Source of the DNA: a virus
Taxonomy: Duplodnaviria > Caudoviricetes
Virus record (IMG/VR): IMGVR_UViG_3300033148_005125
Coordinates: 1-54,791 of that record
DNA length: 54,791 nucleotides
Direction: 5' to 3' (one strand)
The translations under genes were made by a program, and so were the position numbers. How positions within the stretch are numbered: the stretch's first letter is position 1; every line of letters starts with the position of its first letter. The notes beneath the pieces are model-generated. The model saw only the letters and a program-made list of their open reading frames with translations. It was not told the origin of the DNA and searched no databases. Shown here piece after piece: positions 1 through 26,100 of this stretch.

Positions 1-2
1 AT

Positions 3-4191: not shown

Positions 4192-4354
4192 ATAGATAAT
4201 TTTTATTGAGTTATAAAATTCAATAGGAAAGGGATAAGGTTTGTTGTCTTTTGGACACGCCTCTGTTCGATCTCAACAAAAAGGATAGCTTTTTTAAAAA
4301 AAACCAACCTGAAAATTTTTTTTAAAAAATGGATAATGGGAGGATTAAAAGATT

Positions 4355-5959: not shown

Positions 5960-5984
5960 TGATTTAGGGTATTTAGTTTATAGG

Positions 5985-6014
5985 ATGGGTGGTGCTTTTG
6001 CACCACCCATTTAT
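5985..6014 (+). terminator. intrinsic terminator-like hairpin after the tube gene
   Basis: Perfect 11-bp stem ATGGGTGGTGC-TTTT-GCACCACCCAT followed by a short T/A tract. Confidence 0.75.
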
Positions 6015-6040
6015 AAAATAATTATGGGAGGAATATAGGC

Positions 6041-6289
6041 ATGGCAAGTAATAATAAAAGTAAGGAAAGAATGAATCGGTTAGTGGCAGATGAAGTTACT
6101 AAAATGTTTGAACATGCTCTTGATTATGCACAAGTTGCCTGCCCTACTGCAGATACATATAAAGTTCTAAGATCAAAAATTCTTAGAGTAGGTAATAATT
6201 GTATAAGAAATATTAAAAGAAAAATAGAACATTATGATGTTGAATATAAGGATATCTCTGAGGATATAATAGAAATTCCTGAGAGATAA
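6041..6289 (+). CDS. hypothetical protein
   Basis: 82 aa; SD GGGAGGA upstream. Confidence 0.7.
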   Translation: MASNNKSKERMNRLVADEVTKMFEHALDYAQVACPTADTYKVLRSKILRVGNNCIRNIKRKIEHYDVEYKDISEDIIEIPER

Positions 6290-6324
6290 TAAATAAAAAG
6301 AAAAGGTAATGGAGGAGGTTTATA

Positions 6325-7095: not shown

Positions 7096-7098
7096 AAA

Positions 7099-8121
7099 AT
7101 GGATGTTACTCACGAAGAAACAGAGAAATGTCTATGTAAGATTTTTACAGGTAGTGACTTATTATATATTAAATATGGCGACGAGGATACTCATATTGAA
7201 TTTAGGCAGCCAAGCAATAATATCCGATTAAAAGCCAATATTGTTTATAATGAAGCATACGATAAAGCTATATCTGAAGGTATGTTGTCTACTGAAGATT
7301 TAAAAGCGTTGCTAAAAGAAAGAAATATTTTTACTCAAGAGGAAGAAGATCAACTTAACAGATTAGAATCAAAATTAAAAGGCCAAGAGGTTTTATTAGC
7401 TAAAACGATAGTTGTAAAAGCTAGACAAGACAGATTAAAAAAAATTGTGTCTGATTTAAAGAGTGAGATAAATGTTTTACAAGCTAAAAAAATTTCTATG
7501 CTGATGATGTCTGCTGATGCAAAAGCTGAGGAAGAAAGAACTTTGTATTTATGTTGGTCTTGTACATATAATAATGATACATTTGAATTGTATTGGAAAA
7601 CTTATAGGAATCTTTTGAAAGAAGATAATTTAGTATTTAAGGATGAAGTTTTATCAAAGTTTTTAAGGTTTTATAGGGGTGTAGATACTAAACTTATTAG
7701 ACATATAGCAAGAAGTAATTTATGGCGAATAAGATATATTACTAGTCAAAAGACGTCGGACCCTTTGTTTGGGGTACCAACGTCACAATATACAAATGAT
7801 ATGTTAAATTTGGCTTATTGGTCAAATTACTATCAAAATATTTACGAGATGCTTCCAGAAGATAGACCCCCAGATTTAATCATCGATGATGATGAAGCAT
7901 TAGATGCTTATATGCAGAGTTATTATGATGATAGAAGTAGGGAAAATGCGGCAAGGCGAAGTAAGGTTAAAACTAAGGGGAAACTATCAGCTTTTGATAA
8001 AGAGGAAGTAATCGTAACTCAATCGAATGAATTATATGAAGATATAAAATATGACAAACCAAGAGAAGCACGAAGAATTAAAAACAAAGCAGCAATAAGG
8101 AAAAAAACCAGGTCTGGTTAG
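7099..8121 (+). CDS. putative tail assembly chaperone (gpGT-like), paralog of the upstream gene with a C-terminal extension
   Basis: N-terminal ~190 aa align by eye to 6325..7095; extra C-terminal region (YEMLPEDRPPDLIIDDDEALDAY); immediately precedes the TMP. Confidence 0.55.
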   Translation: MDVTHEETEKCLCKIFTGSDLLYIKYGDEDTHIEFRQPSNNIRLKANIVYNEAYDKAISEGMLSTEDLKALLKERNIFTQEEEDQLNRLESKLKGQEVLLAKTIVVKARQDRLKKIVSDLKSEINVLQAKKISMLMMSADAKAEEERTLYLCWSCTYNNDTFELYWKTYRNLLKEDNLVFKDEVLSKFLRFYRGVDTKLIRHIARSNLWRIRYITSQKTSDPLFGVPTSQYTNDMLNLAYWSNYYQNIYEMLPEDRPPDLIIDDDEALDAYMQSYYDDRSRENAARRSKVKTKGKLSAFDKEEVIVTQSNELYEDIKYDKPREARRIKNKAAIRKKTRSG

Positions 8122-8184
8122 GAATGATAGGATAAGAATAATAATGTTTTTGGTTTAAACTAATGTTTAATGGAGGTGCTGTTC

Positions 8185-11100
8185 TTGGCTAAAGACGAAT
8201 ATACATTTACTTTCCTAAAGGGTTCTACACAATCTACAGGTGGTGGCGCAGCCAAAACTAAGTCACAAGCCGGTGATTCTTCTATGAAAGATCTTCGTAG
8301 AACCCTTGAAAAAATCTTTAGAGAAAGTTCTAAAGATAATTCCAATACACTTGCAAAATCACTAGAAAAAATAATTATAAAATTTGCTAAGATACAAACG
8401 CAAGTTAAAGGTACTGCTGCGTCCGCAGGCCTTAGTGGTGCTGATGCACGTAGAATAGCCAAAGAGGTAGCCTCTGAAATTGTTAATCAACAAATAAGAC
8501 AATTAGCCAAATCATTTCCATCAAAAACTACCACCACAAAACAATCAGATGATAAACTTATAAAGTCTATAGAAAGAAGTGCTGATAGACAAGCAAAAAC
8601 TATTATTGGTGGTCTTAATTCTATTTTATCTAGACATGGTGTACAGCTTGAAAACATTAAAGATTTAGAAAGAGCCATATCTGGAGCTGTAAAAAATGCT
8701 ATTCCTAAAGATACCAGTATGGGTATCAAAGAAATAGGTAGAGCAGTGACATCATTAAAATCTGGATTTAATGAAATAAACAAGCTTTCCAGACAAATAA
8801 TGTCTATGCGTAAAAGTGGCGGTGGTATAGATGTAAAAGAAATAAAAGAAATGATGAGTTCATTTCAAAAACTTAATAAAGATTTTAAACAAATAACTGA
8901 TTCTACTGTAAAAGCTGGTAAAGCAATAGAAAGTGTAACTAATGATGTTGTTGGGTTTAAGAAAAGTTTGTCAGAAGTAAAAAAAGCTGCTACATCAAAA
9001 GTACGTGGGGTTAGAGAGAGAGCTGAAGCAGATCCTTCTAAGTTTGCAAAAACAGCAGCTGTGGCTATAGGACAAACTTTAGAAAGAGCACTTCAAAAAT
9101 CACCTGGTTTTAAAGGAAGTGATTTAGAACGTAACATAAAAAAGTTAGGTGATAATGTAAAAGATATAGGGGATGTTTTAGATAAATTTAAAAAAGTACA
9201 GGCTGATATAACTACATCAACTAAAAAAGGTAAAATATCTATTGATACAAAGGCAATTATTGGTTTATCCAAAGACTTAGGTAATTTACCAGATAAAATT
9301 GGAGTTGATATAGATACTAAAGGATGGAAAGATTTAACTAAAGGTCTTGAAAATTTTGCAAAAACCGCAGATTTTATAATAAGTTCTTTAAAAAAATTAA
9401 AGGTATCCGTTGATGTAGATACTAAACCAATAGAAAAGAAAGTTGAAAGTGCAGTAAAAAGTGGTGTAGAAAAAGGGTTTTCAAATAATATCAAAGCAAT
9501 AATGAAAGAAGCAGATACTTCTTTTAATAAAGTTATAAGTGAAATGCGGGTTATGTATAAAGCATTACCCAAAGAAAGCCCCATAAGATCACGTTTTGAA
9601 AAAGCAGGCAAAGCATTAACAGTTGCTAAAGAAAGAGGAGATTATCTAGAGATAGCTAAACGTATTACTGGAATACAAGATGTTGTTAAAGCTCCAGTTC
9701 TAAACAAAGCTATAAATGAGTTAAAAGGTGTTATAGTAGAAATTACATCAGAACTTAAAGGGGCTGGTGTTGATGATGTATCAGGCGCATTAAAGAAAAG
9801 TGGTAAAGCTGTTGATGAGTTAACTAATACCATACTTAAAAAGAAAAAAGAGATAGATCAATTTCCTGCTAAAAAGTTTAATATATCTGGAGCTATGGAT
9901 AAAGTTAAATTTTTACAATCTACATCCAGACAATTCCCACAAGAATATATAAAACCAGGAAAAGAGTTTGAATTAAAGGGCACTGATATAGGATTTGGTG
10001 CAAATGTTAGACAGGCGGTAAAAGAAAAAGCAGATTCTTTAGCTAAATCTTTAGGGGCACTTGAACAAGATTTAATATCTGGTTTGGAAGCAGGTCCTGG
10101 ATTTCAGAAGGGCGGTTGGAAACTATTAGATAAAGAACTTAAAAGAGTGGGCCAACAATGGACTTTACAGATGGCCCAGATTGGTGGAGAAGAAGGAATT
10201 GAAGGTTTATTAAAACAATTAGATAAGACTTATATAAAAATCAAAGATCCAAAAAAGTTGTTAGCAGAGTATAAAAGTAAAAGAAAAGAAAAAATAACTA
10301 ATGTTGTAAAAGAGGATTCAAAGAGAGCAACAGAGGTTGGTAAATGGCTTATTCAAAGAAATGAAGATGATATAGAAAAATTATCTTTATCTAAACCTAT
10401 GGCAGGAACAATTAAAAAGTCACTTAAAACCATTAAATCTAAATTTAAAGGTACTGAAGTTGGCGAGATCATGCGTTCAGAATTAATTAGTAGTTTAGGA
10501 ACATCTTTAGAGGAGGTATTTAAAGAGACTTTCGCCGCAGATTTAGTTAAAAAAGAATTGGCTACTGATAGGGGTATAAAAGGACCACTTGTAAGAAGAA
10601 TGGCTATCCCAGCAGCAAAACTTTCTGAAACAGGTACTGCCACATTTAAAACTAGATATGGTACTGAGAGGGCTTTACCTAAATTTGCTACTTATAAAAC
10701 AGGGTTTGAAGAATTATATGATAAAATGACTAAACAACAAGCTATGGTGGGCGAGGAGGCTCGTAAATTTCAAAATGCTATAATTGATATAGGAATGAAG
10801 CCAACTAGTCCAAAAGCTTTTTCAAAAGCAAAAGATGTTTCTAAAGATATGTTAACCAGAATGGCTAAAACTGGTCCACAGCAGTTAGATTTTGTTATAG
10901 AGCAGTATAAAGAAGCTGCTACAATGATAGGTGCTAAAAGACAACAGGCTGGTGTGGGTTCTATAGAAAGTTATGAGAAGAAAATAAGTTCTGGGATAAA
11001 TAGTTTTAGAAATAAATATACTGATTTACCAGAGGTATTTGACAAATTCGTGGTTGAAATGGAAGATCTTGGTCTTTCTGCATATGATGTAGTTAAGTCC

Positions 11101-14100
11101 CTTGAATCTATAAAATTTGAAAATGTTTATGATATCTATAGAAAAGTTTTAAAAGGTAAAGTTTATAAAGGAAAAGGTGGTAAAAAAGATGTATTTGAAG
11201 GTCCTACCCCAGAAGTGTCACAATACCCTGGATCTAGACGAAATCTTAGACGGTTTGATCAGGCTGTTGCTCAAGTAGAACAGTTAATGCCTATAATAGA
11301 AAAGGCTAAGGTTAAAAGAGGTAAGCATCAGGAAGAAGTTACCACAACATTTTTTCAAACATCACCTATGTATAAAGGTTCCGAAAAAGAACTTAAATTT
11401 GATGCTGATAAACAAAAAGATAAAATATTATCTATAAATATGAATTTGAGAGACATGCTAAAAGAATATGAGACTTTGTCTCAGTCTGGCGCTGAAATGT
11501 CAATGCAAACAGCAAAAAGATTAGAACGATATGCTGGTGTTCCAAGGGGAGTAAAAACAATTTCAACATTAGGTCCTCCAGAAGAACAGGCATCTAAATA
11601 TACTGAATTTAGAGGTGGTAAGTTTGCAGAGAAGGCTAGATCTTTAGCACCATTAGAATCTACAGCTATAAAATTATATACAGAAAAACTATTGGATCAG
11701 GCACCGTTCGGTGAGTTTAGTAGACTTGGTAAACAGATAGGTTATGTAAACAGTGCTATGTCAAGTTTGAGTGATGATGCAAAGAAAGTTTTTAGTGTTG
11801 CTGGGATTACTACAGAAGAACCCAAATTTAGAACAACAAGAGAGCGAGAACTTACTTCTGCTGGTAGATACGGTTCTACTGGTTATGGTTTTAATGTTAT
11901 AGCAGAACTTAAGCATTCTGCTGATACTTTTGAAGATCAAGTTGTGGTCTCTGGCAATTTAGCAAAAGCATTAACACAAGCTGTTAGTACTTTAGTTAAA
12001 CCAGGTCCTAAAGGTAGATTAGGTAGTATGGCCGGAGCTCATGTTACTGATATTGAAAAGGGCCAGGTGTTAAGAGATACCACAGTTAAAGAGATAGGTA
12101 AAGTATCCAAACAATTTATGGAGATACTTGGTGTACCACAAGAATATAAGAAAGAAGCTGATAAAGCTTTAATAGAAACTGTAAAAAAAGAAATAATTAA
12201 TGTTAGGGGTCAGGATGTAGAAATTCAGAAGGCTCAATTAGCTGAAGTTTTTATGAATTATTTCGGTAGAAAGTTCACCACAAGGTATGGTTCTAAAGGT
12301 GTTAGTATAAGTAAGGAAGATTTAGGTACAGCTAAAATACCTAAATCAATGGGCCAGTTAGCGTCTGATATTATAGGTAAAATGGAGGAAGAAGGTAAGG
12401 CTCCTAAATTTGGTAAATTAAAAAATATTGCTGGTATACAGAAGGAATTAGTAGAATCAGGTAATAAGTTTATGATTAGTATGTTTAGTGATGCTACTAG
12501 TCAAGTTGCTAAAGGATTAGGTGTAGAAGAAGAAATAGAGAAACAAGCTAAGATATATAAAATGTTTACAGGTCTTATAAAACGGGTTTATGGTGAAGAT
12601 TTACCAAAAGATGTTGAGGGTATACTTAAGTTAAAAAGTCTTTATAAACAAAAAGTTGGTGGAAAGCTTTTTGAAGAAAAACCTATTGATATAAGAATAA
12701 GTGCACGTGGTGCTATTAAACGTGGTTTACAACCAGAATTTATAGAAACCATGATGGGTAATGTTATAGGTGCAGGAGCTAAAGAAACTACAGTTCAACC
12801 AAGGATTGAAAAAGGCGTTTATGAAAAAATATTAGGTACTAAAGGAAAAGCAGGGATGCTAAGCAGATATAGCAAAGCACTGGGTTTTGAGTCCGCCGGA
12901 CCTAAAAAGAAAGAAATAGAAAAAGAACTTTTTAAAACATTTAAAGCGGCCGGCAAAACCGATGAAGAAGCTAAAGTTATGGCTGAGAGAGCAGCCGCTT
13001 TTGAAGCATCCGCTAATTATTACACAACAGTTAAAAATGAATATGGAAAAGCAACTAAAAGTATAATAGGGCCTAAATTTGTTCAGATAATAGAAGAACC
13101 ACATGAGACAGAAAAGTGGTCTGCTAAAGGAGTAAAGGAGTTAAAGAAAGGAGCTAAAATAAATTTAGCTGCTTACTCTGCTTATGCTGGTGTTTTTGGT
13201 GAACAATCTTCTTTAATGAAGCAAATAAAAGGTGGGACTACTTTAGAGTCTAAAAAACAGTTTGAATATATAAAAGCCTTAGAAGCAATGGCTGTAAAAG
13301 GCCCAGGCAAAGAGATGGCAGATGCTTTAATGCAGGGTGTTAGAAAAGTTCCTTTGGGAGAACTACAAGAATTTGAACCACGTACAGGAACATTCAGTAA
13401 GGAGGATCTTGAAAGAAGTTTAAAAGGAACAGTTCTAGATATAGAAAAATATGCATCTGATTTTGCTGTAGATTTACCAGCTGGCAAGGGTGCTAAAGGT
13501 GAGATGTTAACAAAGCCTTTTTATATCCCAGGGCCATTAGCTAGACAAACATACCCAGAAGAATTATTAGCGGGCGAATATGGCATGGATGAAATAGCAA
13601 GATACTTACAGATGGTGATTAACACTGCTAAGGAAACAGAAGCAGCATTCTCTGGTGAAGGATCTAAAGTAAAAGATGTAAATAAGGTTATTAGAGATAA
13701 AGTTTTATCCGCTATAGCAAAGGCACAAGAAGGTGGTGTTACAGAAAAAACAGATGTACTTAATAAACTTTGGCAGGGTTTACAAGATATTGAAGTTGAT
13801 TTTGCTTTCAGAAAAGAAATGGGAGCTCCTGAAGGTACAACAGAAAAACAATATATAACTAAATATTTTGAAAAATTTAAAAGTAGATATGCTCAAACAC
13901 CAGGCAAAACTGAAGAAGATGCAATGTTGCAAACTATTCGTAGGATGGGTGATATATTAGTAGGTCCTAAACTAGGAGCTAGAAAAGATATAGCGGCCAC
14001 TAAACCAAGGTTAGCTAAAGAAGTAGAAGCTGGTACTACAGCAGCTTTTGCAAAAAGATTGGGTATAGATATAACTGATGATGAATTTATAGATAAAAAA

Positions 14101-17100
14101 TTAGATCAGTTGAGAAGAGCTAAAGTTACTTATATGAGTGCTTTAGCCAAATCTTTATTGGGTAAAAGCGGCGCTGTACAATCTACATTTTTCGAAAGAA
14201 AAGCACCAGCGGTTATGGGTAAAGCTATAAATGCTGTTACTGATAGAACATCCGAGTTAAAAGAATTTAGTAATACATTAAGAAAGTTAGCATCAGAAGC
14301 TGGGTTCGAAAAATATATAGAAGCATTTGGCAGTATAGCTAATGTTGTTGATGAAATAGGTGCTGAACACGCAAATATTATATCTAAATATAAAAAATCA
14401 GGTGTTCCTGTTTTAAAACAAGAAGAGCTTGGAATACCAGAGTCTATGGCTAAAAAAATGCCAGTCACATTTGAAAAAAGATATGAAATGACATCTGGTA
14501 TGCCTATACTAACTAATAAACCCAAAGCGGCTACTACTGTAGAATCTAATCTTTCTAAGATGTTGGATTATAAAAAAGAACTAGAAGAAGGTTTAAGTAA
14601 AGTAGATATTAAGTCAGACGTAAATGCTATTAAAGATTTCATAGAACAAGAATTAGTTCCTCATGTAGAAACTATGAGGTTCCCTTTCACAGGTGTTTCT
14701 TCATTACAACCATATAAAGCCAAAGTATTAAAAGAAGAAGATTATCCAAAAGGAAAATTTGCATACGCAGTGCCGGGTGTGCCTGAAATGAGAATGGCTA
14801 CTGAGGGTGATAAAACTGGTTTTGTTGAAGTAGTTAAAAAATTAGAAGGAATAAGAGATGATTTTATAAAAGCCAGAGAAGGATTACATACAACATCAGA
14901 AGCTGCAGGAATGGAAGCAGATCCATCAAGAGTAAAAGAACTTACTGATAAAATAGGAATGTTAGATGAAGCAATATCAAATGTGTTGCCTAGATATACA
15001 GCCATACAACAAAAATTAGATTTTGACGGTGATGAAATAGAAGCACATTCTGGTGTATTAGCGGGGGCTAGACGGGATATAAAGAAACATTTTGATACAC
15101 TCAATAAATCTACAGACTCTATTGAAACTGCTTGGAGACAAGTTAGAGGTTTTGAAGAAACTACACCAGGAGCCACTAGTTCTAGATTTCCATTTGCTGA
15201 TTTATTAACATATTTTGAAAGTAAGTGGAAACCTGAAAAAGGATATGAGTTTCTAAAAAGACCAGAAATAACTGAGAAATTAGAATTTTTAAAACCATCA
15301 GAAAAATTAGATATTTTATCCGGTGGCGAGCCACAAAAAATAGGCATGTTGTTGAAGGATATTACTTCAAGACAAGTTACAGAGTCAGGTCCTAGAGAAG
15401 AGATATTTGCTACTATAGATAAAAATATAAATGAAGGTAATAATACTTCCAAAGCATTATTAGAAGCTATAAAGATGTTAGATTCTGATTTTTCTAAGTT
15501 GATAGAAGCAGGTGTTAACGAAAGTCTATATCAGCAAAAATATTCGGATGCTATAATTGGTCAGTTATATAAATTACACACAGGACCAGATGTAGAGGCT
15601 GTATATAGAATGCAGAGAGTATCTGAATCTAGAATGGGTTTTGGTGGAGGTATGATAGCACCTGAAGAAGGTGGTTATAGAACCAATGTTTCTGATACTT
15701 TCAGAAAAAGGTGGCCAACAGGTTTAAAAATGTTAGGTAAAGTTTCACCTGAATCTGAGATAAGTACCTTCATGAATGAAATAAGTCGTTTTGCACAGCA
15801 AAAAGGTATGGATGTTAAATTAGCTGGTGAAAAACCAGTTGGTGGTGAGATGACTTCTTTATTAGGTAAGGGAACAGAGGGTATGGACATCCTGTTAGAA
15901 AAAATAGGTTTAGCAGGAGAAAAAGCTAATGATGATTACAAGCAATTAAAAGAATTTGCTGATACAAGTTCTAAAGTTATAGAAAAAAGACTAGGTACTT
16001 TACCCACAGAGGCAATAAAGAAAGAAGTTTCTGGATTAAGAAAAGTAAGAGGTATGCCAGAAATTACAATGGGAACCAGAAAACAAGCCGTGGATGAAGC
16101 TGTAAAATTGATAGGTTTTGAAGGTTTTCTTAGAGAGTTATCCAAACAAATAGAAGAAGATGCTGTAGAAGCTCTCACTGCTCAACTAGAGGCTATGCCT
16201 GAACATAAAAGAAAAAAACGTATGAGTAGAAAATCTTACCTGTCTACCAAAGAATTTGCTGAAGAAGAAATACAGACTAGCGAGAAAATAGGAAAGAAAT
16301 CTCCTACTGGAATAAGTACGTCTAAAATAATGCAACAGAGAGCACCTTTATATGGTTTTAGGAGCTCTAGCGCTACACAAGATGATATAGTAAAAGCATA
16401 TAGAGATACTGCAGAGCCAGTTGTAGCTCCAAAGTATTTGAAAGGTGATACTGCTTTAAAATATGAAAAAGCTCAGGAAGTTGCTTTAAGTATAGCCAGA
16501 TCTTTAAAAGAAGTAGGTCAAATGAGACCTGGTGGTGCTTATAGTGATTTAGTGTTGTCTACTATAGACAATATGTACAAAGAACAAGCAAAGAAAGAAT
16601 CCACTTTAAACGATTTAAGACAGGAAGGTTATAATATAGGTATAAAACGTGAGACATCTGATATACCACAAAGAATGTTTGAAGAAGGTATGCCTGACAT
16701 ACCATCATTTATTAGAGAACTTATAGATCCTTCAAATACTGCAGCTAACTCTTTACAAGAACTTAAAAAAGAAGTTGATGCTCTTTCTTTATTAGCAGGG
16801 GTACCCCCACTTAGTGCTGAAACCAGAAAGCAAATTAAAATAGATATGCCAGAATTAGGTGCCGCTGCCAGAGCAAAATATCCAGAAATAGTAGAAGAAA
16901 GTGAAATTGCTAAATCTGAACGAGAGAGTAAAATAAGTGAATTTACTGATTTACTAATTCAAAAGGCTCAAGCAGTTGCTCAAATGGATAGAGCTATAGC
17001 TTCTTTAATATCTTCAAAAGGTTTTGAAACTAAATTATTACCCCCAAAAGAGGATGTTAAAAGAGCTTTAAATGAAACTATAAAAGCTACAATAAAAGCC

Positions 17101-20100
17101 CCAATAGGTAGACCAACTATTGTTGAACCATCAACTACTAGAGAACTTAGACAAGGTATAGAAAAAGCAAGTGATATGTTTTTTTCAAAAACACAAGAGG
17201 TAAGTAGAATGCCTGTTGTTGGTGGTCCTACCGGTCCAAGCGATATAGGTCCTAGTGGAACATTAGCTGGAAGGCTTAGTGATGAGGTAGTACGTGTTCA
17301 TATACAAAGTGTTCAAGAAGGTATAGGGCTATCTTTTACACCTGCCGGCGCCATGCAGGATGTTATAGAGTCTAGAAAACCAGATAGAAAAGGATATACA
17401 GATGAATTAAAAGAATTACAAAGAAGATCTGCTGGGGTAACTCAAACTTTAGAAGAAACTTATGCAAATGTTTATAGAGCAAGTGCTCTATCTGGTGGTG
17501 GTATATACGGTAGTAAAAAAGGTAGTAGAGAACAACAACAAGTTGAATCTATAAAAGAATATATGAGAACCGGTAAAAAAGAAGTTCCGCCAAAAGCTGA
17601 AGCTATGGCATTTGAGGGAACTGTTATACATAAAAAGGAGCAAGATAGATTAATAAAAGAAATAGAGGCACAGACTGGTGGAAAAGAAAAGTACGATGTT
17701 GAAAGATATGTTAAATACACCAGTTCAATGGCAAAAGATATAACTGGTCATGTAGATCTAATTAAACAAAGATTAGATGAAGATACTCAGGAATATGTTG
17801 ATAATAAAATTATAGACATTAAAACTGTTAGTGATAAAATGGTAAAAAGATTTAAAGATTTAGGTGTAGAAAAATTTTCAGATTTACCAGAACTAAAAAA
17901 GAAAGGTGGATTAACAGAATACGATGTACAAAAATTAGAAGATGTAGCTTCCCAACTTAATTTATACATAGCTGCTGTAGCACAAGCTAATAGTGTTGCT
18001 GCAGATAGTCTTAAAGGCGAAGCTTGGTTTTATGATAGAGATGATATAAAAAATATAGCTAAAGTAAGTTTTGATTTTGATCCTAATAGATTAAAAAAGG
18101 ATATAGACGCTGTATCTAAAGCAAGAAAGTCCATAGTTTCTGAATATGGTAAAGATGCATTTGCTAAAGCTACACATGTAATAGATTTAGAAAAAGCAGA
18201 TGCTAAACGTAAAGCTGGAGTAGAACCATTATCTACTAAAGAATGGAAAAGGTTTGAGAATATATCTAAAGAACATAGAAAGATGGTAGAAGATCCAAGC
18301 AGTGATTATTGGAAAAGAGAAAAAGATGTAAAACCTAGAAGTATTGATAAAGAAAGACTTAGGGAGGAAAAAGGAAGTCAAAGAGCAAGGTTTGAAAGTT
18401 ATACAATACCAGAAGCCCCTGTGATGGGAGAAGCAGTTTATGATCAACTAGAAAACCTTAAACTTGTACATAAAGCAGCTAAAGATTATCAATTAAGATC
18501 TAAAGGTATAAACATGAAAACTGTTGGTACCGATATTCATGAAAGTTTAGCTCCTATAATAGAAAATGTACAAGAAATAGGACCACAGGGTAATGCATTT
18601 TCAGAAGCCATCGAGGATTTAAAATTTGCTGGAATGATTGGTGGTGGTGAAATAAGTAAAGCTTGGAAATATTACAGAATAGCGTTGGGTGATTTTTATA
18701 TAAAACAAGCTGAAGAAGCTAAAAAATTAGAATCTGATTTACAACAACAAGGTGAGTTAGGTGGAGCAAACGAGGCTTATCAGCAAGCAGAACGTACTAT
18801 AAATGATATGAAGAAAAGGATGTCTCAATCATTAGGCAAACCTTCTGATATTTATACTGAAATGAGACGTTATATATCTCCAGATATTATGCAGCAATTA
18901 GGTTTGTATTTAACACCAGAGCAACTTATTACTAAATCTAAAGGTTCTTTAGGGGATGATGAAAAACTTGATAAAATATTTAAAGAAGGTATTGTTGGTG
19001 ATGTATTAGAGGGCGGAAAACTTACTGCTCCTATAGAAAAAGTCAGAGATGCTTTAAAAGGAATTAGTGATTTAGATGAAGACATGGTTAAAGTATTAAC
19101 TGATGCAAACAAGCTTAAAAAGGTAGGACCTGAAATACAAGAAGCTTGGAATTTTGAAAAACTTACTGATAGAGTAACTAAATTAAGAGCGAGTTTAGAA
19201 ACATTTTTAAGATTTAGATTGCAAGAAGATGACGATGTAGTAGGTAGAAAAAATTTAGAAGATACGTTAAAACTTTTAAAGAGTTTAGAAAACCAGTATT
19301 CATCTCTTGGAAGAGTACAAAAAGAAGGCCCTGCCGGTTGGGGACAAATGGGTCTTGTTAAGGTTCCAAAATTTGTTGAACCTAAACAACAATATGCAAT
19401 GCATATGAGAAACGTCCAAAAGACTAGAGAATATTTTGGAAAGATAGAAGAAAAAGGTGGTCCAAAAGCTGGCGAAAGATACAGCTATATGTTTAAAGTG
19501 ATAGGTGAATCTGGCGACACAATAAAAAATGCAGTATATGATTTTAGAAAGTATGGAGATGCTGTAAATTTTGCAGGTGAAAAAGTAGGTGTTTTTAAAG
19601 AAGATCAGCGCGATATGTTTGAGTTCATGCAGGAAGGCGGTAGGACTTTTAGATCTGCTATTATGCGTGCTATTAGATGGGGCGCTGCTTCTAGAATAGT
19701 CTATGGTGGATGGCAGAAATTAGGTCAATCTATAGGATTGCTTGCTGATATTGAAACTGGTATGGCTAATCTAAGAATGGTTATGAGTCCACTAGAAACT
19801 GATTTTGGTGGTTTGGGCAAATCTGCTATAGGTTTTGCTAAACAATATGGTGTACCCATGACAGATGTGCTTAAATCTATGAAGATTTTTGCTCAACAAG
19901 GTTTAAAGCAGGAAGAAGTTGTAGATAGGACTCAAACTGCTACTTTAGCTTCTAACGTTACTACTTTAAGTGCAACTGAGGCTACGGAAGCTTTAACTGC
20001 TGCTATGAAAGTTTTTCGTCAAGAAGGCGAAAGCTCTATGAAATTTATGGACGCTTGGAGTGAGGTTGAAGCTAAGCATGCTATTACATCTGGTGATATG

Positions 20101-23100
20101 GCAAATGCTTTAAAGAAAGCAGCGTCCGCTGGTAAGAATGCTGGATTTTCTTTTGATGAATTAAATGGTGTTGTAGCAGCTATAGGAGCAGTAACTAGAC
20201 AAAGTGGTAAAGAAGTGGGTACCGCTATGAGATTTATTTTTAGAAGACTTACTAGTGAAAAAGGTCCAAAAGAATTAGCTAAAATAGGGATACCTGTTTT
20301 AACTGATACAGGAGAACTTAGAAAAGGTTTTGACGTTCTAGATGATCTGTCTAAATCTTGGAAAGATTTAACCAGTGCTCAAAGAATGAATATAGCACAG
20401 GCTATTGGTGGTACAAGACAATATAATGCTCTCTTAGTTTTAATGGATAATTGGGGTGAAGCTCTTAGTGCTATTAAAGATAGTACTAATTCTAAGGGTT
20501 CAGCTGAGAGACGTAATTTAGAAATAATGAAGACTTTTACTAAACAGATGGCGCAGATGAAACAAGCTGCTACTGAAGTTTATATGTCTTTTGGTAAGAT
20601 TACATTTCCAGCAGCTAAGGTTGGTCTGAAAGGTTTAAAGTTTTTGTTAGAAGCTTTTACTGAGGTGCCTGGTGTTATAAAAGGCGCTATGATAGCGATA
20701 TCTGGTTTCTTTATTTATATGTCTAAGGGTGCTGATATTATAGATTATTTCTTTGAAAGATGGAGAGGTGGTAAATCTATAATAGGTAATGTTATGAAAG
20801 AAATTGGTAATGAATGGACTATGGGAATGTCAGAAATGTTTGGAACTGGCGCTCTTGAGCAGAATTTAAAAACTATAGGTAAAGGTAAAAAAATAAAAAT
20901 ACCTGTGGGTGTTTTTGATGTAAGCCCTAAGGGAGTAGCACAAGAAAGAGTTGTGGAAAGATCAGTACCACAAGGTAAAAAATTAGGAGATTTCCATTCT
21001 GTATTAGGTAAAACAACATTTTTACTTAAACAGACTGGTATGGCTTATAATGATTTTATAGGTGATGTAATTAAAGGAAGCGGAGACCTTGCTAAAGATA
21101 TGGGCGGTCCTTTTGAATATATTTCTAAAAAAATGTATGCTTTAGAGAGTATGTTTAAAAAGCTTACTAGTACTATGGTTAATCCAGAGATGATAATAAC
21201 GGCGTTAGAAACTGGTGGTTTTGTAGATTTAATTCCTGGAATCATCGGTACTGTAGGAATTGTTGCTAGTAAAGCAACTGGTGATGCTACTAAAGCCGTT
21301 TCTAAATTATCAGATTTTGCTGGAGATAAGTTTGGACAGACAGGAAAATCTTTTGTAGAGGGATTTGCTTCCGGTAATACCGATATGGTTAAGGCTTTAG
21401 CTCCGTTGGGTGCTACTATTATTGCTCTTTATCCAGCACTTAAATCTTTAAGTGAATATTATATGAAAACTACACAATCTGCACAAGATTATGAAAAGGC
21501 TATGTATGGTGTCAGACGTGCTAATGAGAGTCAATTAAAAGGTATTAGAGAATTAATGAGTGGTTATTCAGGTTTAGAAAGTTCCATGGCTGATGTTGCT
21601 AAAGTATCAGATCCTAATGTAAAAAAACGAAGACAAGAATTAGGTACTTTTGAAAGTCCATTATTAACTATGTCTTCAATTATTAAAAAATCAAGAGATT
21701 TATCAAATAATTTAGCTGACAGTAATATTAATTTAGTAGTAGGTTATGATAAATTTGGTAATGCTATTTTAAATGTTACTGGAAATCTTAAAGATTATTT
21801 AAAAACTTTAGAAAATATAAAAGTAAAAGAAGTAGCTAAAGTTGAAATAGATATAGCAGCTAAATTTATTACAGATTTAACAGAAATAGAGGGACCAGAA
21901 AAATGGAAATATGCTTTAAAGAATTTACTTAAAGAAGCCCCTGCTTTCGGTGAGGTTTTAGCTAAAGGTATAAAAACATCTCCGGCTAAAGCTATGAATG
22001 TAGTTACTGAAAGATTAAATGATATGTTAGCACTAAAAAAGAAATTTCCTATGTCCACAGCTTTTGATAAAGATATAAATAAACATCAAGCTAATTTAAA
22101 GAAAGTACGTTCTGGTTTCAGCGCCACATATTCTGATTTTAGAAGAGTCTTATCTGATATAACAACAAAAGGTTTAGGTAAAGATGAGATAGCAGCATTA
22201 TTAGGCACTAAAGAACTTCGTAAAGGTTATGAATTAATGATTGAAGTTGAACCTAGATTTAATCTTAAGGAAACAAAAGGTAAAGTTGAATGGCAGGATG
22301 TATTAGGGGCAGAAGTTATGAGAAGAGCATTTCCTTCTTTTGCTGCTACATTTGATGCCACATCAGTTTTAACTAAAGCAAGATTAGAGACTTCCGGAGC
22401 TGTTAAAAGAGAAGGGAAAGCTATGTCTGGTGATGTAGCCTTCTTTATGGATAGTGCTGCTGATAAATATGGTATAGCTGGAAATCAAGCTGTTGTTTCT
22501 CTAAAAGAAACTACTGATGGTGTGTTTGATTGGTTTATTACTTATTTCAATAGTAAAACTCTTAAGATAGAAGAAAAACCATTTACAGAAGATTTACAAG
22601 GTATGGTTGAAAGTATATTCCCAAAGAATAGAATAGAAGAAGAGTTATCTGAGAGAGTGCAATCTCTAAACGAGTTCGTAGCAGGCGCTTCAGCTGGTTT
22701 GAGGGGATTATCTGCTAAAGATTTCAAGAAAGATTTTGGTCTAGGTGAAAGATTTTTCTCTGAAATTCCTACTACTACTATATTACAAGGCCCAAAAGGA
22801 TTTGTTCCTAGCGCTGCCGGCGGAGCGGGTACTTTTGGCCAATCTCCATTTCAAAAAGATTGGAAAGAAACTACTGAACAATTTTTCTTTAAACCAATGC
22901 GTGAATATAGACTTAAAGCTGATCAATTAGATAAACTTAAGCTTGAAGGTTTACAGGGAGGAGAAGTTACTTTAGCAAAAGGTTTATATGAAGAATTAAC
23001 TAAATTACAAAATACATTAAAAAATAATCAAGTAGTTTTACAATACAGAGCTGTTTTTGCTGATTTAACAAAAACACTAGAAGAAGGAACTAGAGCATTA

Positions 23101-26100
23101 AAAGAAAATTTAGCAATTGAGAAAAGCAGGTTGAAACTAAGAAAAGGTGTAGCTGGTTATCAAAAAGGTATCCCAGAAGGTTTAGATGATATAGATCTTG
23201 GCGTTCAAAAATTTTCTGATTTAACTGTAAAACAAAGAGCACTTATGGCAGGACCTGAATATGGTAAATCAGCTATTAGATTTAGAGAATTGGAAACTAG
23301 AAAGGGTGCTGGAGAAGAACAAGTTTACGGTATAGATAGAGCTTTAGTAGCATTAGAGAATATAAGACAAGTTTCTAAGGGGTTTGGTACTTCTTTAAGT
23401 CCTGAAGACATGAAAAAATATACTGAAATAATAGCTAAAACTGATGATACAGGTGCACAATCTATAGCGATAGAGACCAGTAAGGTTGTGGATAACACTG
23501 CTAGCACTGTTGATAGATTAGATCAAATTTTAGAAAATATGGGAGATGTTAGTGTATTAGAAAAACAATTAGAAAATATAGGTAAAATGTCTCCTAGTTC
23601 TATGGTTAGTATGATGGAGAAGGTAGCTAGAGTTAGGGAGAAGAAACTTGAAACTGGTGATAAGGAATCAGTTAGGGCCACTAATAAAACTTTAGATGTA
23701 TTGGTAAATAGTCTTGTTGAACAAGTAGGAATTAAAAAAGCTATGTCTATGGTTGATAATAGTTTTACATTATTTTCTAAGAGGTTTAAACCAGAAGAAT
23801 TTACACAAAGAGCTTTTGGTGGATTAGATTTTAAACAGTTTACAACCAGTATGAAAGAAAATTTACCAACCCAGAGATCATTTTTCAAAAGATTTTTAGG
23901 GATTGGTGAAAATATATCTGGATTTGATAAAGAAATAAAACCATTGGTTAAATTACAAGATAAAAATAATAAAGAACAATGGGTTAGTTCTAAAGAAATG
24001 ATTAAATTGTCTGCTGCCATGGCTGTTTGGTCTTCTTTTAATAAACACCAATCAAGTAGAGTTATAAAAGAATTAGAGGGCCAGAAAAAAGAGTATAAAG
24101 TTGGAAGTAAGGAAAGAGTAGCTATAGAAAAAGCTATAGAAAAAGAAAGAACAAGCGGTATAATGGAAGGGAGAGGTGGGGAAAATGTCTGGAAATTAGC
24201 ACAATCATTTTCTTTCTTAACAGGCACTGTTGGTATGTTTGCTAAAGAATTAGGTATGACTGAAAGACAAATAAAAACATTAGGTGGTGCTTCTGCTGGA
24301 TTATATGCTGGTTTAAAATTAGCTAGTAAAATTACTGGCGATAAATTACCAGAGTCTGCTAAAAAATTTGAAGCTAGTTTAAAAGAAGCAGCACTCACTG
24401 GTAAAAAAGGTCCTTTAATAACTGCTAGTGCTGAGTTAGCTAAAGATGCTAAAAAAATGTTTAAAAAAACTGGCGCTATCTCTGAAGAAGAGTATAAAAA
24501 AACAGCAACAGATAAGGATTTTAAACAGTTTAAAGACGCTCTGGATTCGGCAGTTACGAAACAAGGTGATATGTCTGATAAAGTTGGAGACTTTTTAAGT
24601 AAGGCTAGAAGTCCAAAGGTTGTAGATGAAAGATTTTTAACAAAAATATTAACTACTTATTTAGCAGCAACAGCTGCTGGATATGCTGCCCAAAGAACTG
24701 AAGATGAAACACGATTAGCCACACTTAATTCTCAAGCTGAAAAAGAAGCAAAATTATTCGTGGAGATTGTTGAAAAATACCCTAAAGCTGCACAAAAAAT
24801 GATAGATGCTAGAAAAGAATTAGTAGATAATATAGAAAAAGTAAAACCAGTTCCCACCACAGAGAAATCATTAGTGATGGATACTGAAAAAGAACGGGAA
24901 AAAATTGTTGGTGATCTATCTAAAATTAGAAAAGATATTATAAGTGAACATGAAAAAATGAATAGTGAGTTATCTAAAGTAGCTAAAGAAATGGCTAAAT
25001 TAGAAATAGCAGAAAAGTTTAAGATAGAATTAGAGGAAATGGAACGTGCTATTAAAGATATAGATATTGCTTCAGCCACTCAAAGAGTTTTAGAAACGAG
25101 TTTGTCTGGATTTACTGGCGGTTCTGTTTTTGGTGGTGGTACTATAAGACGTGATTTGGGAACCCAGTGGTCTGGTGATGTTTCTAATATGATAGAAGAT
25201 CGTTTTGAGGATATGTCAAACACACTTAGATTTCCTAAATCTGCTGGTAAGTTAGTTGGTAAATATAAACCCCAATCTGTAGATTATGGTATTAGAGGAA
25301 TAAGTGAAATGACGCCAGAACAGTATATGGTTCATACTGGAAAAAGAGTTGCTTATAAACCATCATTAGGTCAGTTTTTTGGACAAGAAGTTTCAGGGCC
25401 TCAGCGCGGAGAAATGGGAATTGTTACATTATTAAAAGATGTTCTCTCTGGAAAAACTTTAGGTATATCTAAAGTAAGAACTGCTGAAGACATGTTCAGC
25501 AATCTTGAAAATATGCAGAAAAAAAGAGAGGTAACAGAAGCTAAATTTATAGAACATATGTCTAGAAGAGAGGAGCTTAGAGGCAGAAAAGGGAAATTAT
25601 CTGAAACAGAAAGTGCCGAATTAGATAAACTTGATAATATTATAGAATCGCTTGGTGATGGTTTAGTTTCCATGGTAGAAGATATAGCTAAAGCTAAAGA
25701 TGCTTTGAAAACAAGTTTGGAGGAGGCTGCAGATGTTATAAGACAAAGAGTAACAGCTTTTGATGCTTTAAGAGATCTTAATGAATCTAATATAAATAGA
25801 ATGTACGGTAATACAGCTGTTGTGAATAGAGGTTTAGCTGGTTTTGGTGGTGGTTATGATCTACCAATGGGCAAGAGAGAAATGTCATTACAACAACGTA
25901 TTTTTACTGACGCAACTAGCGGTTTCAATGAAAGGACCAATGAGTATGCATATAAATTAAACACTTTAATTCCTAGTATGTCTCAAAATATATCAGAACT
26001 CACACAGATGAGAGAGGATGTACCGGTTGGTGACACTGACAGATATAATGAATTAACCAAACAAATAGAAAAGTCAAAAAGTGCTATGGATAAAATGATT

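What the first reader, a model, noticed from the sequence alone, without database searches (positions are those of the whole stretch)
10590..15830. Single-chain RNA polymerase keeping cellular beta then beta' motifs in order
Seen, compared with recalled cellular consensus: IPAAKLSETGTATF..GTER ~ IPLMTxxGTFIINGxER; DTFEDQVVVS ~ YNFEDAIxxS; GRKFTTRYGSKGV ~ GDKxxGRHGNKGV (both Lys kept, aa 1368 and 1376); PIDIRISARGAIKR ~ PVDIxLNPLGVPSR; YIPGPLAR..DEIARYLQMVIN ~ VLPPDLRP..SDLNDLYRRVIN; LLGKSGAVQSTFFERK ~ LKGKQGRFRQNLLGKR; LKQEELGIPESMA ~ LKLHQCGLPKxMA; MRFPFTGVSSLQ ~ NRAPTLHRLGIQ; KLDFDGD ~ NADFDGD (all three Asp, aa 2284-2288); FAQQKGMDVKLAG is a possible trigger-loop equivalent. Inference: a catalytically intact virion RNAP. 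It keeps clamp/switch-like motifs and has long insertions between RxP and DFDGD, so it may be a lineage distinct from the crAss-like and P23-45 enzymes.
Basis: partly seen in the sequence, partly recalled or inferred. Interest (0 to 1): 0.92.

Follow-up and report, generated by a model that had tools for sequence, protein, structure and literature searches.

The report
RNA polymerase inside giant tape measure
The 7,445-residue tail "ruler" protein of this uncultured large phage contains a single-chain copy of the catalytic core of cell-type RNA polymerase, so the phage probably injects its own transcription enzyme, an arrangement shown by experiment so far only in one unrelated hot-spring phage.

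Summary
All ten quoted motifs lie in one 7,445-aa ORF (8170-30507) in the stated order. The catalytic ones are conserved: KLD[F/Y]DGD in 29 of 29 homologues, and E1255/D1256, K1368/R1372/K1376 and R2170/P2172 in at least 28 of 29.

The same ORF carries a tape-measure core (Pfam PhageMin_Tail, E 4e-28) and an SLT lysozyme.

Polymerase identity rests on three results:
- The fold model of aa 1716-2333 matches the first ~500-650 residues of RNAP largest subunits (Z 10.2-11.1, 50 of 50 rows).
- A family profile matches only RNAP beta chains in the PDB (20 of 20, best E 0.0044).
- The domain is homologous (E 2e-11, 462 columns) to a stand-alone ~1,100-aa beta-beta' protein in three sister phage genomes, which matches the Pfam Rpb2_6 and Rpb1_2 models.

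It shows no sequence similarity to P23-45 gp96 or phi14:2 gp66 beyond DFDGD.

The kind is known (Chaban 2024). This lineage is large, widespread and unpublished in the library searched. This scan has already noted the lineage on other genomes.

Weak points: the beta-half fold match is weak, the catalytic loops are modelled at low confidence, and activity and virion delivery are inferred.

The parts
8170..30507 (+). Single 7,445-aa ORF: giant tape-measure-type protein that contains everything below
   Evidence: Uninterrupted ORF. 28 homologues of 4,271-7,923 aa. 105 representatives at E<=1e-3 among 1.84 billion proteins.
8170..10536 (+). N-terminal ~790 aa, Lys-rich and helical, ahead of the polymerase
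   Evidence: No Pfam or PHROG family. The family profile hits only coiled-coil and helical-bundle PDB entries here.
10537..13314 (+). beta-like module (aa ~790-1715): lobe-like N-part, the second catalytic barrel, and the beta C-terminal motif
   Evidence: Profile A5 against the PDB: 20 of 20 hits are RNAP beta/Rpo2, best E 0.0044. hhalign to the stand-alone RNAP: aa 1171-1823, E 2e-11, 462 columns. VIA: top 3 rows are RNAP second-largest subunits, Z 6.0-6.8. aa 792-1245 match beta 40-800 at Z 4.4-5.0. All these Z values are weak.
10606..10671 (+). IPAAKLSETGTATF..GTER (aa 813-834), equivalent of beta 127 IPLMT...GTER
   Evidence: P814, G822, T828 and G831 are kept in >=28 of 29. The VIA alignment starts at model 22 (aa 811) against beta 125. 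Beta motif position.
11923..11952 (+). DTFEDQVVVS (aa 1252-1261): ED pair of the beta-type barrel
   Evidence: E1255, D1256 and Q1257 are kept in 28 of 29; the 29th sequence is N-terminally cut. Aligns to NFEDQ of the stand-alone RNAP and to beta 811 NFEDS (that E-value is at noise level).
12265..12303 (+). GRKFTTRYGSKGV (aa 1366-1378): the two active-site lysines of the beta-type barrel
   Evidence: K1368, R1372 and K1376 are kept in 28 of 29. HMMER aligns the family consensus to beta GDKLAGRHGNKGV.
12682..12723 (+). PIDIRISARGAIKR (aa 1505-1518)
   Evidence: HMMER aligns it to beta PVDIILNTHGVPRR. I1506, I1510, S1511, G1514 and R1518 are near-invariant.
13315..15168 (+). beta'-like N-terminal half (aa 1716-2333): clamp-core-like region plus the DFDGD barrel, which carries a ~75-aa helical insertion
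   Evidence: AlphaFold model m00efa6eb69d1. VIA against the PDB: 50 of 50 top entries are RNAP largest subunits, Z 10.2-11.1; E. coli beta' 6wmu_D scores Z 10.8 with 269 residues aligned, model 517-1134 against 24-508. The wide search is led by Pol I A190, Z 10.9. Foldseek: 40 of 50 rows come from RNAP entries, but none has E<=0.001.
14674..14709 (+). MRFPFTGVSSLQ (aa 2169-2180): RxP strand of the DFDGD barrel
   Evidence: R2170 and P2172 are kept in 29 of 29. Aligns to ERFPCLG of the stand-alone RNAP.
15013..15033 (+). KLDFDGD (aa 2282-2288): metal-binding aspartate triad
   Evidence: D2284, D2286 and D2288 are kept in 29 of 29. Pfam RNA_pol_Rpb1_2 weakly matches this spot in 3 of 17 family members (best E 0.0034). 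It also matches in 4 giant frames of sister records (E 0.002-0.004).
15562..15828 (+). Conserved QLYKLHTG (aa 2465-2472) and FAQQKGMDVKLAG (aa 2541-2553): candidate bridge-helix and trigger-loop region, untested
   Evidence: Q2465, L2466, K2468, T2471, G2472, G2546, D2548, K2550 and G2553 are kept in 28-29 of 29. Position 2551 is His in 24 and Leu in 5, including this phage. No fold model covers this part.
19819..20412 (+). Tape-measure core (aa 3884-4081)
   Evidence: Pfam PhageMin_Tail, E 4.1e-28, above the cut-off. PHROG tape-measure families reach E 1e-78.
20665..21267 (+). Two hydrophobic segments (aa 4166-4184 and 4348-4366), the only ones in the protein
   Evidence: Kyte-Doolittle 19-residue window >=1.6. 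A membrane role is inferred.
27865..28194 (+). Lytic transglycosylase domain (aa 6566-6675)
   Evidence: Pfam SLT, E 1.1e-23, above the cut-off. PHROG lytic tail protein, E 2.5e-23.

Best explanation
Residues ~790-2700 of the phage's tape measure protein are a real single-chain two-barrel (cell-type, beta then beta') RNA polymerase with all recognisable catalytic residues intact.

Proposed mechanism:
1. The protein lies in the tail tube with its lysozyme-bearing C-terminal end at the tip.
2. On infection it is expelled. The SLT domain cuts the cell wall and the hydrophobic segments help form the membrane conduit.
3. The N-terminal polymerase leaves last, next to the incoming DNA end.
4. The polymerase refolds in the cell. 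It needs no zinc or disulfides, because it has no cysteine.
5. It transcribes the first phage genes independently of the host enzyme.
6. In complete sister genomes a second, stand-alone ~1,100-aa paralogue is present and probably takes over later transcription.

Shown here: the fusion in one ORF, the domain identities, conservation of the catalytic residues, the paralogue in sister genomes, and the absence of cysteine.

Inferred: enzymatic activity, presence in the virion, ejection, refolding, timing and targets. The orientation in the tail follows general knowledge of tape measure proteins.
For: (1) One ORF carries the polymerase motifs, a tape-measure core (PhageMin_Tail, E 4e-28) and an SLT lysozyme.

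(2) The catalytic motifs are kept in 28-29 of 29 homologues at 29-73% identity, and the window's protein keeps all 138 near-invariant positions.

(3) Fold of the beta' half: 50 of 50 re-aligned PDB entries are RNAP largest subunits (Z 10.2-11.1, 118-286 residues aligned). In the Foldseek-independent search of 48,161 chains, the top two rows and 15 of the 50 rows are two-barrel polymerases aligned colinearly to their N-terminal ~500-650 residues.

(4) The profile of the beta-like barrel region against 177,635 PDB sequences gives 20 of 20 hits to RNAP beta/Rpo2, best E 0.0044, pairing the Lys motif and the PIDIRIS motif with their beta counterparts.

(5) Three of five large sister records encode a 1,088-1,180-aa ORF that matches Pfam Rpb2_6 and then Rpb1_2 in that order, up to 28.2 bits. 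That ORF also matches beta chains in the PDB (E 7e-4). The tape-measure domain is homologous to it: E 2e-11 over 462 columns for the beta half, and E 5.9e-4 over 68 columns for the DFDGD barrel.

(6) Cysteine count:
- 0 Cys in 7,445 aa here, against 1.76% in the other 29 ORFs of the window.
- 48 of 59 giant homologues have none.
- The stand-alone paralogues have 16-18.
- The experimentally proven tape-measure-fused polymerase P23-45 gp96 also has 0 Cys in 5,002 aa.

(7) Precedent: gp96 of P23-45 is a virion RNAP fused to the tape measure and transcribes pre-early genes (PMC10770324; abstract and sections 6, 11, 12 and 13 read).
Against: - No Pfam, PHROG or PDB sequence hit for the window's own polymerase region.
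- Foldseek gave no match at E<=0.001 for either model, and no RNAP among the 50 rows for the beta-half model.
- Beta-half fold matches are weak (Z<=6.8), within what the tool calls background.
- Both models have low global confidence (pTM 0.39 and 0.48). pLDDT is below 50 at the FEDQ, Lys and DFDGD loops.
- I could not read coordinates, so I could not check that the two barrels face one active site.
- hhalign of the family profile against E. coli RpoB/RpoC gives the expected motif pairs only at E 0.2-0.5. Mismatched control pairs score the same. Only DFDGD stands out, at E 0.012.
- The candidate trigger-loop His is Leu in this phage.
- An enzyme of ~1,900 residues with a clamp-like part is far bulkier than the flat, clamp-less gp96, which the authors proposed as an adaptation to the tail channel.
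- There are no virion proteomics, transcript or activity data.
- The record is only about 21% of a genome. Neither a second polymerase nor promoters can be assessed in this phage.
Confidence: 0.75

Rival explanations
1. The region descends from a polymerase but no longer polymerises. It survives as a structural or length-setting module of the tape measure, or as a DNA- or RNA-binding pilot domain.
For: Catalytic loops are modelled at pLDDT<50. The candidate trigger-loop His is Leu here and in 4 close relatives. No activity data exist. The stand-alone paralogue in sister genomes could supply all phage transcription.
Against: The Asp triad is kept in 29 of 29. The ED pair and the two Lys are kept in 28 of 29, the 29th being truncated, across 29-73% identity. 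That pattern is expected under selection for catalysis, not for a ruler. 138 near-invariant positions cluster on polymerase motifs.
Confidence: 0.1
2. It is an active two-barrel polymerase, but not a DNA-dependent transcriptase of early genes. For example, it could be an RNA-templated enzyme like QDE-1, a primase-like enzyme, or a PolD-like DNA polymerase.
For: Two-barrel cores also occur in QDE-1 and PolD (PMC10770324, section 11). QDE-1 appears in the fold list at Z 8.1. Substrate specificity cannot be read from these data.
Against: The best and longest fold matches are to DNA-dependent RNAP largest subunits, including the clamp-side N-terminal ~340 residues. All profile hits in the PDB are RNAP beta. 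The Pfam models matched by relatives are Rpb1_2 and Rpb2_6.
Confidence: 0.06
3. It is an active RNA polymerase that is not delivered through the tail. It could be cut off the tape measure during assembly and discarded or kept in the head, or the giant ORF may not be the functional tape measure.
For: No virion data. The size and clamp-like part seem hard to pass through a tail tube. Tape measure proteins of other phages are known to be processed (general knowledge). Gene neighbours gave no PHROG or Pfam tail annotation.
Against: The fusion is kept in all full-length family members seen: 59 stored proteins over 6,000 aa. Near-total absence of cysteine extends over the polymerase part, whereas the stand-alone paralogue has 16-18 Cys. 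The proven ejected gp96 shares this trait.
Confidence: 0.08
4. The motif resemblance is chance in a long, Lys/Glu-rich protein.
For: Individual hhalign motif matches to E. coli subunits are at noise level. Pfam and PDB sequence searches with the window's protein alone find nothing.
Against: Family-wide invariance of the motifs. Fold matches. The PDB profile search. E 2e-11 homology to a protein that matches Pfam RNAP models.
Confidence: 0.01

Closest known systems
Thermus phage P23-45 gp96 (also P74-26, G20c, TSP4): tape-measure-fused virion RNA polymerase (Chaban et al. 2024, PMC10770324)
   Same: A two-barrel RNAP with a DFDGD motif lies ahead of the tape-measure part in one giant polypeptide. 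A second, separate single-chain RNAP exists in the lineage (gp64 there; the ~1,100-aa ORF in sister genomes here). Both giant proteins have zero cysteines.
   Different: - No sequence similarity beyond 10 columns at DFDGD (hhalign E 0.06; blastp nothing below E 1).
- gp96's polymerase occupies the first ~1,100 residues with DFDGD at 779. Here it starts after a ~790-aa helical region, spans ~1,900 aa, and has DFDGD at 2284.
- gp96 is flat and clamp-less. This model aligns to beta' 24-508, which includes the clamp side.
- gp96 carries a metallopeptidase. This protein carries an SLT lysozyme.
- gp96 comes from an 84-kb Thermus phage. This lineage has ~230-270-kb genomes.
Cellular multisubunit RNA polymerase beta and beta' (E. 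coli RpoB/RpoC; Pfam RNA_pol_Rpb2_6, RNA_pol_Rpb1_2)
   Same: Same order of recognisable motifs: beta 127, 811, 1063, 1093 and 1266, then beta' 245, 332, 361, 424 and 458. The fold of the beta' N-terminal ~500 residues matches.
   Different: - One chain, not two.
- About 1,900 aa against 2,749.
- No cysteines, so no zinc sites (RpoC has 15 Cys).
- Only 113 residues between the ED pair and the Lys motif, against 250 in E. coli, so the large flap-side insert is much reduced.
- ~75 extra residues inside the DFDGD barrel.
- The Pfam models do not reach their cut-offs on this protein.
Stand-alone ~1,100-aa single-chain beta-beta' proteins of sister jumbo phage records (L046, L047, L048), unnamed
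   Same: Closest detectable relatives outside the tape-measure family: E 2e-11 over 462 columns, with the same motif order.
   Different: They are not fused to anything and are half the size. They have 16-18 Cys and no insertion in the DFDGD barrel. They were not found in this 21%-complete record.
crAss-like phage virion RNAP (Cellulophaga phage phi14:2 gp66, PDB 6VR4)
   Same: A virion-borne single-chain two-barrel RNAP inside a very large structural protein, with few cysteines (2 in 2,180 aa).
   Different: DFDID rather than DFDGD. No profile similarity (best hhalign E 0.4). It is not among the 50 rows shown by the fold searches. It belongs to a podovirus cargo protein, not a tape measure.
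Jumbo-phage multisubunit RNAPs (phiKZ, AR9)
   Same: Large phages that carry their own cell-type polymerase. AR9 and phiKZ subunits appear in the fold lists: 7s00_d Z 7.9, 7ogp_A Z 7.4, and 7s00_C Z 4.7 with 20% identity.
   Different: Those enzymes are split into four or five subunits and are not fused to tail proteins.

Membership tests
Two-barrel (double-psi beta-barrel) RNA polymerase superfamily | Barrel with the DxDGD metal-binding triad (beta'-type) | tested here: met
   D2284/D2286/D2288 are kept in 29 of 29. Fold match to RNAP largest subunits: Z 10.2-11.1, 50 of 50 rows. Weak Pfam Rpb1_2 hits in 3 of 17 members and in 4 sister giant frames.
Two-barrel (double-psi beta-barrel) RNA polymerase superfamily | Second barrel with the ED pair and two conserved lysines (beta-type) | tested here: met
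   Met at sequence level: E1255/D1256 and K1368/K1376 are kept in 28 of 29, and the PDB profile search gives 20 of 20 RNAP beta hits, aligned on the Lys motif. The fold evidence is only weak: Z<=6.8, with loops at pLDDT<50.
Two-barrel (double-psi beta-barrel) RNA polymerase superfamily | The two barrels face each other and form one active site | not testable with these tools
   Model coordinates cannot be read. The pTM of the model that spans both barrels is 0.39.
Two-barrel (double-psi beta-barrel) RNA polymerase superfamily | Bridge helix and trigger loop after the DFDGD barrel | not tested
Two-barrel (double-psi beta-barrel) RNA polymerase superfamily | Template-dependent NTP polymerisation | not testable with these tools
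   Needs biochemistry.
Tape-measure-fused virion RNAP (P23-45 gp96 type) | Polymerase and tape-measure core in one polypeptide | tested here: met
   One ORF. PhageMin_Tail E 4e-28 and PHROG tape-measure families down to E 1e-78.
Tape-measure-fused virion RNAP (P23-45 gp96 type) | Sequence homology to gp96 | tested here: not met
   hhalign matches only 10 columns at DFDGD (E 0.06) and blastp finds nothing below E 1. The stand-alone paralogue's barrel does align to gp96 715-788 at E 1.7e-5.
Tape-measure-fused virion RNAP (P23-45 gp96 type) | Flat, clamp-less architecture at the extreme N-terminus | tested here: inconclusive
   The polymerase starts near aa 790, not at residue 1. The model aligns to beta' 24-508, including the clamp side, but model confidence is moderate.
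Tape-measure-fused virion RNAP (P23-45 gp96 type) | Present in virions and transcribes pre-early genes | not testable with these tools
   No isolate or proteome. Indirect support only: zero Cys, as in gp96.
Tape-measure-fused virion RNAP (P23-45 gp96 type) | Paralogous non-virion RNAP elsewhere in the genome | tested here: inconclusive
   Present in 3 of 5 large sister records. Not found in this window, which is about 21% of a genome.
Cellular RNAP beta/beta' (Pfam PF00562, PF00623) | Score above the Pfam gathering cut-off | tested here: not met
   No hit on the window's protein even at E<=10. Relatives reach E 0.002-0.004 only.
crAss-like virion RNAP (phi14:2 gp66) | Sequence or fold similarity to gp66 | tested here: inconclusive
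   hhalign best E 0.4, on non-catalytic stretches. gp66 is not among the rows shown, which does not exclude it.
Phage tail tape measure protein (PF10145) | PhageMin_Tail domain above the cut-off, in a long helical protein with a C-terminal wall-degrading domain | tested here: met
   99.1 bits against a cut-off of 33.2. SLT scores 83.5 bits against 21.3.

The most novel reading that the evidence does not exclude
This lineage is a second, independent fusion of an RNA polymerase to a tape measure. The polymerase is closer in layout to the cellular beta-beta' enzyme and keeps a clamp-side region. That would mean a ~200-kDa, cysteine-free, zinc-free cell-type polymerase is threaded unfolded through a phage tail and refolds in the host. 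It would also mean that the pairing of an injected polymerase with a stand-alone paralogue has evolved, or been kept, repeatedly in long-tailed phages.
Probability: 0.4. Interest if true: 0.8.

Novelty: new variant of a known kind. Interest (0 to 1): 0.66.

Why it matters
A tape-measure-fused, injected RNA polymerase has been shown by experiment in one small group of Thermus phages. This is a different and much larger version with no direct sequence similarity to that one. It is found in at least 105 protein clusters at the 50% identity level and at 41 IMG/VR loci, on genomes of about 230-270 kb.

If the domain is active, three things follow:
- Host-independent early transcription by an ejected tail protein would be a widespread strategy of large uncultured phages.
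- It would give a natural example of a minimal, single-chain, cysteine-free cell-type polymerase.
- It raises a concrete question: how does such a bulky enzyme pass through a tail tube and refold?

The contrast in cysteine content is a simple sequence signature that could help separate ejected from non-ejected phage enzymes. The fused polymerase has 0 Cys and the stand-alone paralogue has 16-18.

Tried and rejected
- Sequence searches with the window's polymerase region alone found no named family. This covers Pfam and PHROGs, PDB phmmer (0 hits at E<=10), tblastn against 50,697 phage records, and Pfam PF00623 on the whole record at E<=10.
- A profile of 17 family members against the PDB hit only coiled-coil and designed helical proteins on the N-terminal helical part. 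None of the 60 rows shown was an RNAP.
- hhalign of the 29-sequence profile against E. coli RpoB/RpoC gave the expected motif pairs. The mismatched controls scored equally, so I do not count those hits as evidence, apart from DFDGD at E 0.012.
- hhalign against phi14:2 gp66 and P23-45 gp96 found nothing beyond DFDGD.
- Foldseek gave no E<=0.001 match for either model. For the beta-half model it listed SRP GTPases and helical repeat proteins, not polymerases. Re-alignment of those rows gave Z<=5.2.
- P23-45 and phi14:2 structures were not among the 50 rows shown. That does not exclude similarity.
- A first low-threshold hhalign against the stand-alone RNAP stretched the alignment and misplaced the beta' half. 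I re-ran the two halves separately and cite those values.
- A single-protein scan of viral contigs found no relative. The alignment-based scan did.
- Pfam phage sheath PF04984 was found in 0 of 5 records. This says little in so divergent a lineage, so I do not claim a non-contractile tail.
- tblastn of the stand-alone RNAP against phage records found only two short beta-like hits, so no cultured relative was identified.
- Neighbouring ORFs gave almost no annotation, so gene order does not independently confirm a tail module.
- Literature: five full-text searches returned only PMC10770324 for a tape-measure-fused polymerase. Passages of PMC7824862 do not mention one.
Supplementary Data 3 and 4 of PMC10770324 list RNAP families and genomes with two RNAPs, and may already include this lineage.
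- Complex prediction, sequencing-run tools, the protein atlas, and the metagenome and genome contig scans were not used.

Full report
What is there. The window is a 54,791-bp linear IMG/VR virus record that CheckV rates about 21% complete. Almost all genes lie on the + strand. The finding lies inside one uninterrupted ORF, 8170-30507, of 7,445 residues. Pfam and PHROGs find nothing in residues 1-2700. They do find a tape-measure core at aa 3884-4081 (PhageMin_Tail, E 4.1e-28; PHROG tape-measure families down to E 1e-78) and a lytic transglycosylase at aa 6566-6675 (SLT, E 1.1e-23). The only two strongly hydrophobic segments lie just after the tape-measure core. So the ORF is a giant tape measure protein whose first third has no annotated family.

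Is the motif pattern more than chance? A word-indexed search found 28 homologues of 4,271-7,923 aa, 29-73% identical over aa 750-2650. An exhaustive phmmer of aa 1200-2399 against 1.84 billion representatives found 105 proteins at E<=1e-3. Nearly all are giants of 6.4-8.0 thousand residues or fragments of them, and none is a normal-sized polymerase subunit. KLD[F/Y]DGD is present in 29 of 29. They include E1255 D1256 Q1257, R1367 K1368 T1371 R1372 G1374 K1376 G1377 V1378, R2170 P2172 F2173 G2175, K2282-D2288, and N2536-G2553. The window's protein has the consensus residue at all 138.

Is it a polymerase? Direct sequence comparison is not enough. The window's region finds nothing in the PDB. 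A 17-member profile hits only coiled coils on the helical N-terminus. hhalign of the family profile against E. coli RpoB and RpoC returns the expected motif pairs only at E 0.2-0.5, and mismatched control pairs score the same. Only DFDGD stands out, at E 0.012. Three other lines are stronger.

(a) Fold of the beta' half.
- An AlphaFold model of aa 1200-2399 has mean pLDDT 68.6 and pTM 0.39.
- Aligned to 48,161 PDB representatives without Foldseek, its best matches were Pol I A190 (Z 10.9, 274 residues, model 514-1124 against chain 19-626) and Pol II Rpb1 (Z 10.6). Archaeal Rpo1 (Z 10.1) ranked fourth, behind one helical row.
- Fifteen of the 50 rows are two-barrel polymerases. They include M. 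tuberculosis beta', vaccinia, ASFV, AR9, phiKZ and QDE-1. The rest are helical bundles aligned to the helical insertion.
- Re-alignment of Foldseek's top chains gave 50 of 50 RNAP largest subunits at Z 10.2-11.1. E. coli beta' scored Z 10.8 with 269 residues aligned, model 517-1134 against 24-508.
- Foldseek itself gave no E<=0.001 match, although 40 of its 50 rows come from RNAP entries.
- Thus aa 1716-2333 correspond to the clamp-side N-terminus and DFDGD barrel of beta'.

(b) Beta half.
- A second model, aa 790-1790, has pLDDT 74.5 and pTM 0.48.
- It gave only weak matches, although the top three rows of the wide search are RNAP second-largest subunits (Z 6.0-6.8, model 461-847). Bacterial beta aligns colinearly to the confident N-terminal part (for example model 22-452 against beta 125-768, Z 4.7).
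- Foldseek listed no polymerase for this model.
- A profile of the barrel region was built from 12 family fragments plus the three stand-alone proteins described below. Searched against all 177,635 PDB sequences, it hit only RNAP beta/Rpo2 chains (20 of 20 at E<=1, best 0.0044). It aligned the family's Lys motif with beta's GDK..GNKGV and PIDxRIS with beta's PVDIxLN.

(c) A paralogue that links the family to Pfam.
- An alignment-based scan found 41 IMG/VR loci with this domain, on contigs up to 268,764 bp.
- In five large records (66-100% complete), Pfam RNA_pol_Rpb1_2 weakly matched the giant frames at the DFDGD site (E 0.002-0.004; four places).
- In three of the five records, it also matched a separate ORF of 1,088-1,180 aa (23.2-28.2 bits). 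That ORF also matches RNA_pol_Rpb2_6 upstream in the same frame (18.5-24.9 bits).
- These ORFs carry NFEDQ, HGNKGV, ERFPCLG and LDFDGD. They hit RNAP beta in the PDB (E 7e-4). They align to E. coli beta 1030-1283 at E 1.6e-4.
- The tape-measure family profile is homologous to them. aa 1171-1823 align with residues 248-753 at probability 97.3%, E 2e-11, over 462 columns. aa 2170-2312 align with 838-905 at E 5.9e-4, with about 75 extra residues in the giant.
- Three of 17 family members also touch Pfam Rpb1_2 on their own (best E 0.0034).

Taken together, I regard polymerase ancestry as established. An intact catalytic centre is very likely.

How it probably works. P23-45 gp96 is the precedent. 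There, the N-terminal ~1,100 residues of a 5,002-aa tape measure are a virion RNA polymerase that transcribes pre-early genes, including that of a second, non-virion paralogue. The authors propose that it acts at the pore formed by the ejected tape measure (PMC10770324; abstract and sections 6, 11, 12 and 13). The present protein has the same logic:
- a wall-degrading domain and hydrophobic segments towards the C-terminal end;
- a ruler core in the middle;
- a polymerase towards the N-terminal end;
- a stand-alone paralogue in sister genomes.

One further observation supports ejection. The 7,445-aa protein has no cysteine, while the other 29 ORFs of the window contain 1.76% Cys. Of 59 giant homologues, 48 have none and the rest have 1-4. 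The stand-alone paralogues have 16-18. gp96 also has none in 5,002 residues and phi14:2 gp66 has two, whereas E. coli beta' has 15. A polymerase that must travel unfolded through a tail and the cell envelope and then refold would be expected to avoid disulfides and zinc sites. That reasoning is my inference. Activity, virion location, timing and targets are not shown.

Relation to known enzymes. The kind, a tape-measure-fused virion RNAP, was published in 2024. This lineage differs in several ways:
- It has no sequence similarity to gp96 beyond DFDGD and none to crAss-like gp66.
- The polymerase lies behind a ~790-aa helical region.
- It is about 1,900 aa long.
- It retains a region that aligns with the clamp side of beta'.
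- It has a much reduced insert in the beta-type barrel and an added helical hairpin in the DFDGD barrel.
- It is found in phages of roughly 230-270 kb.

Whether the fusion arose independently is open, because the stand-alone paralogue's DFDGD barrel aligns to gp96 715-788 at E 1.7e-5, better than to E. coli beta'. Five full-text searches found no paper on this lineage. The supplements of the 2024 paper, which I could not see, might list it. No cultured relative turned up among 50,697 phage records. This scan has already reported the same family on other genomes, so within the scan it is a repeat finding.

Weak points:
- Global model confidence is low, and pLDDT is below 50 at the three catalytic loops.
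- I could not read coordinates to check that the barrels face each other.
- The beta-half fold evidence is weak.
- The bridge-helix and trigger-loop region is unmodelled. Its candidate His is Leu in this phage and four close relatives.
- The record is a fragment, so this phage's own second polymerase and promoters cannot be examined.

Verdict. It is a new variant of a known kind. My confidence is about 0.9 that this is a true two-barrel polymerase domain, and about 0.75 for the full statement, including activity and delivery. Interest is moderate to high: the principle is published, but this version is larger, widespread, closer in layout to the cellular enzyme, and poses a clear physical problem.

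Noticed in passing
window 8170-30507 (whole ORF); also P0002-P0085 and L004 8288-23296: The giant protein has no cysteine at all (0 in 7,445 aa), against 1.76% in the window's other ORFs. 48 of 59 giant homologues also have none. P23-45 gp96 has 0 in 5,002 aa, while the stand-alone RNAP paralogues have 16-18. This may be a general signature of ejected proteins.
   Followed up: partly
L046 1495-5034 (+), L047 1326-4589 (+), L048 1715-5041 (-): Sister jumbo-phage records encode a compact 1,088-1,180-aa single-chain beta-beta' RNA polymerase that is paralogous to the tape-measure domain. It is a candidate non-virion polymerase, with no close match among 50,697 phage records.
   Followed up: partly
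window 15820-15822 (aa 2551): In the conserved GMDVK-H-AG block the His is Leu in this phage and in 4 close relatives (His in 24 of 29). If this block is the trigger loop, this subclade has lost its catalytic His.
   Followed up: partly
family members P0021, P0024-P0026 and 4 of 17 members of alignment A2: Some giant homologues carry a Pfam RNase_T 3'-5' exonuclease domain (best E 2.2e-14). It was not detected in the window's protein.
   Followed up: no
window 49876-54552 (+): A 1,558-aa ORF with no Pfam or PHROG family is rich in cysteine, in sharp contrast to the tape measure.
   Followed up: no
window 1-8121 and 30507-48204: 28 of the 29 other large ORFs tested have no PHROG family, and 26 have no Pfam family. 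The only hits are Big_1 Ig-like domains (39180-43139) and an endonuclease I-like domain (48290-49381). The lineage is very far from annotated phages.
   Followed up: partly
window 8170-10536 (aa 1-789): A ~790-aa Lys-rich helical region precedes the polymerase. In the PDB it resembles only coiled-coil and helical-bundle proteins. Its role is unknown; it could be a spacer, a packaging part or a tail-terminator contact.
   Followed up: no
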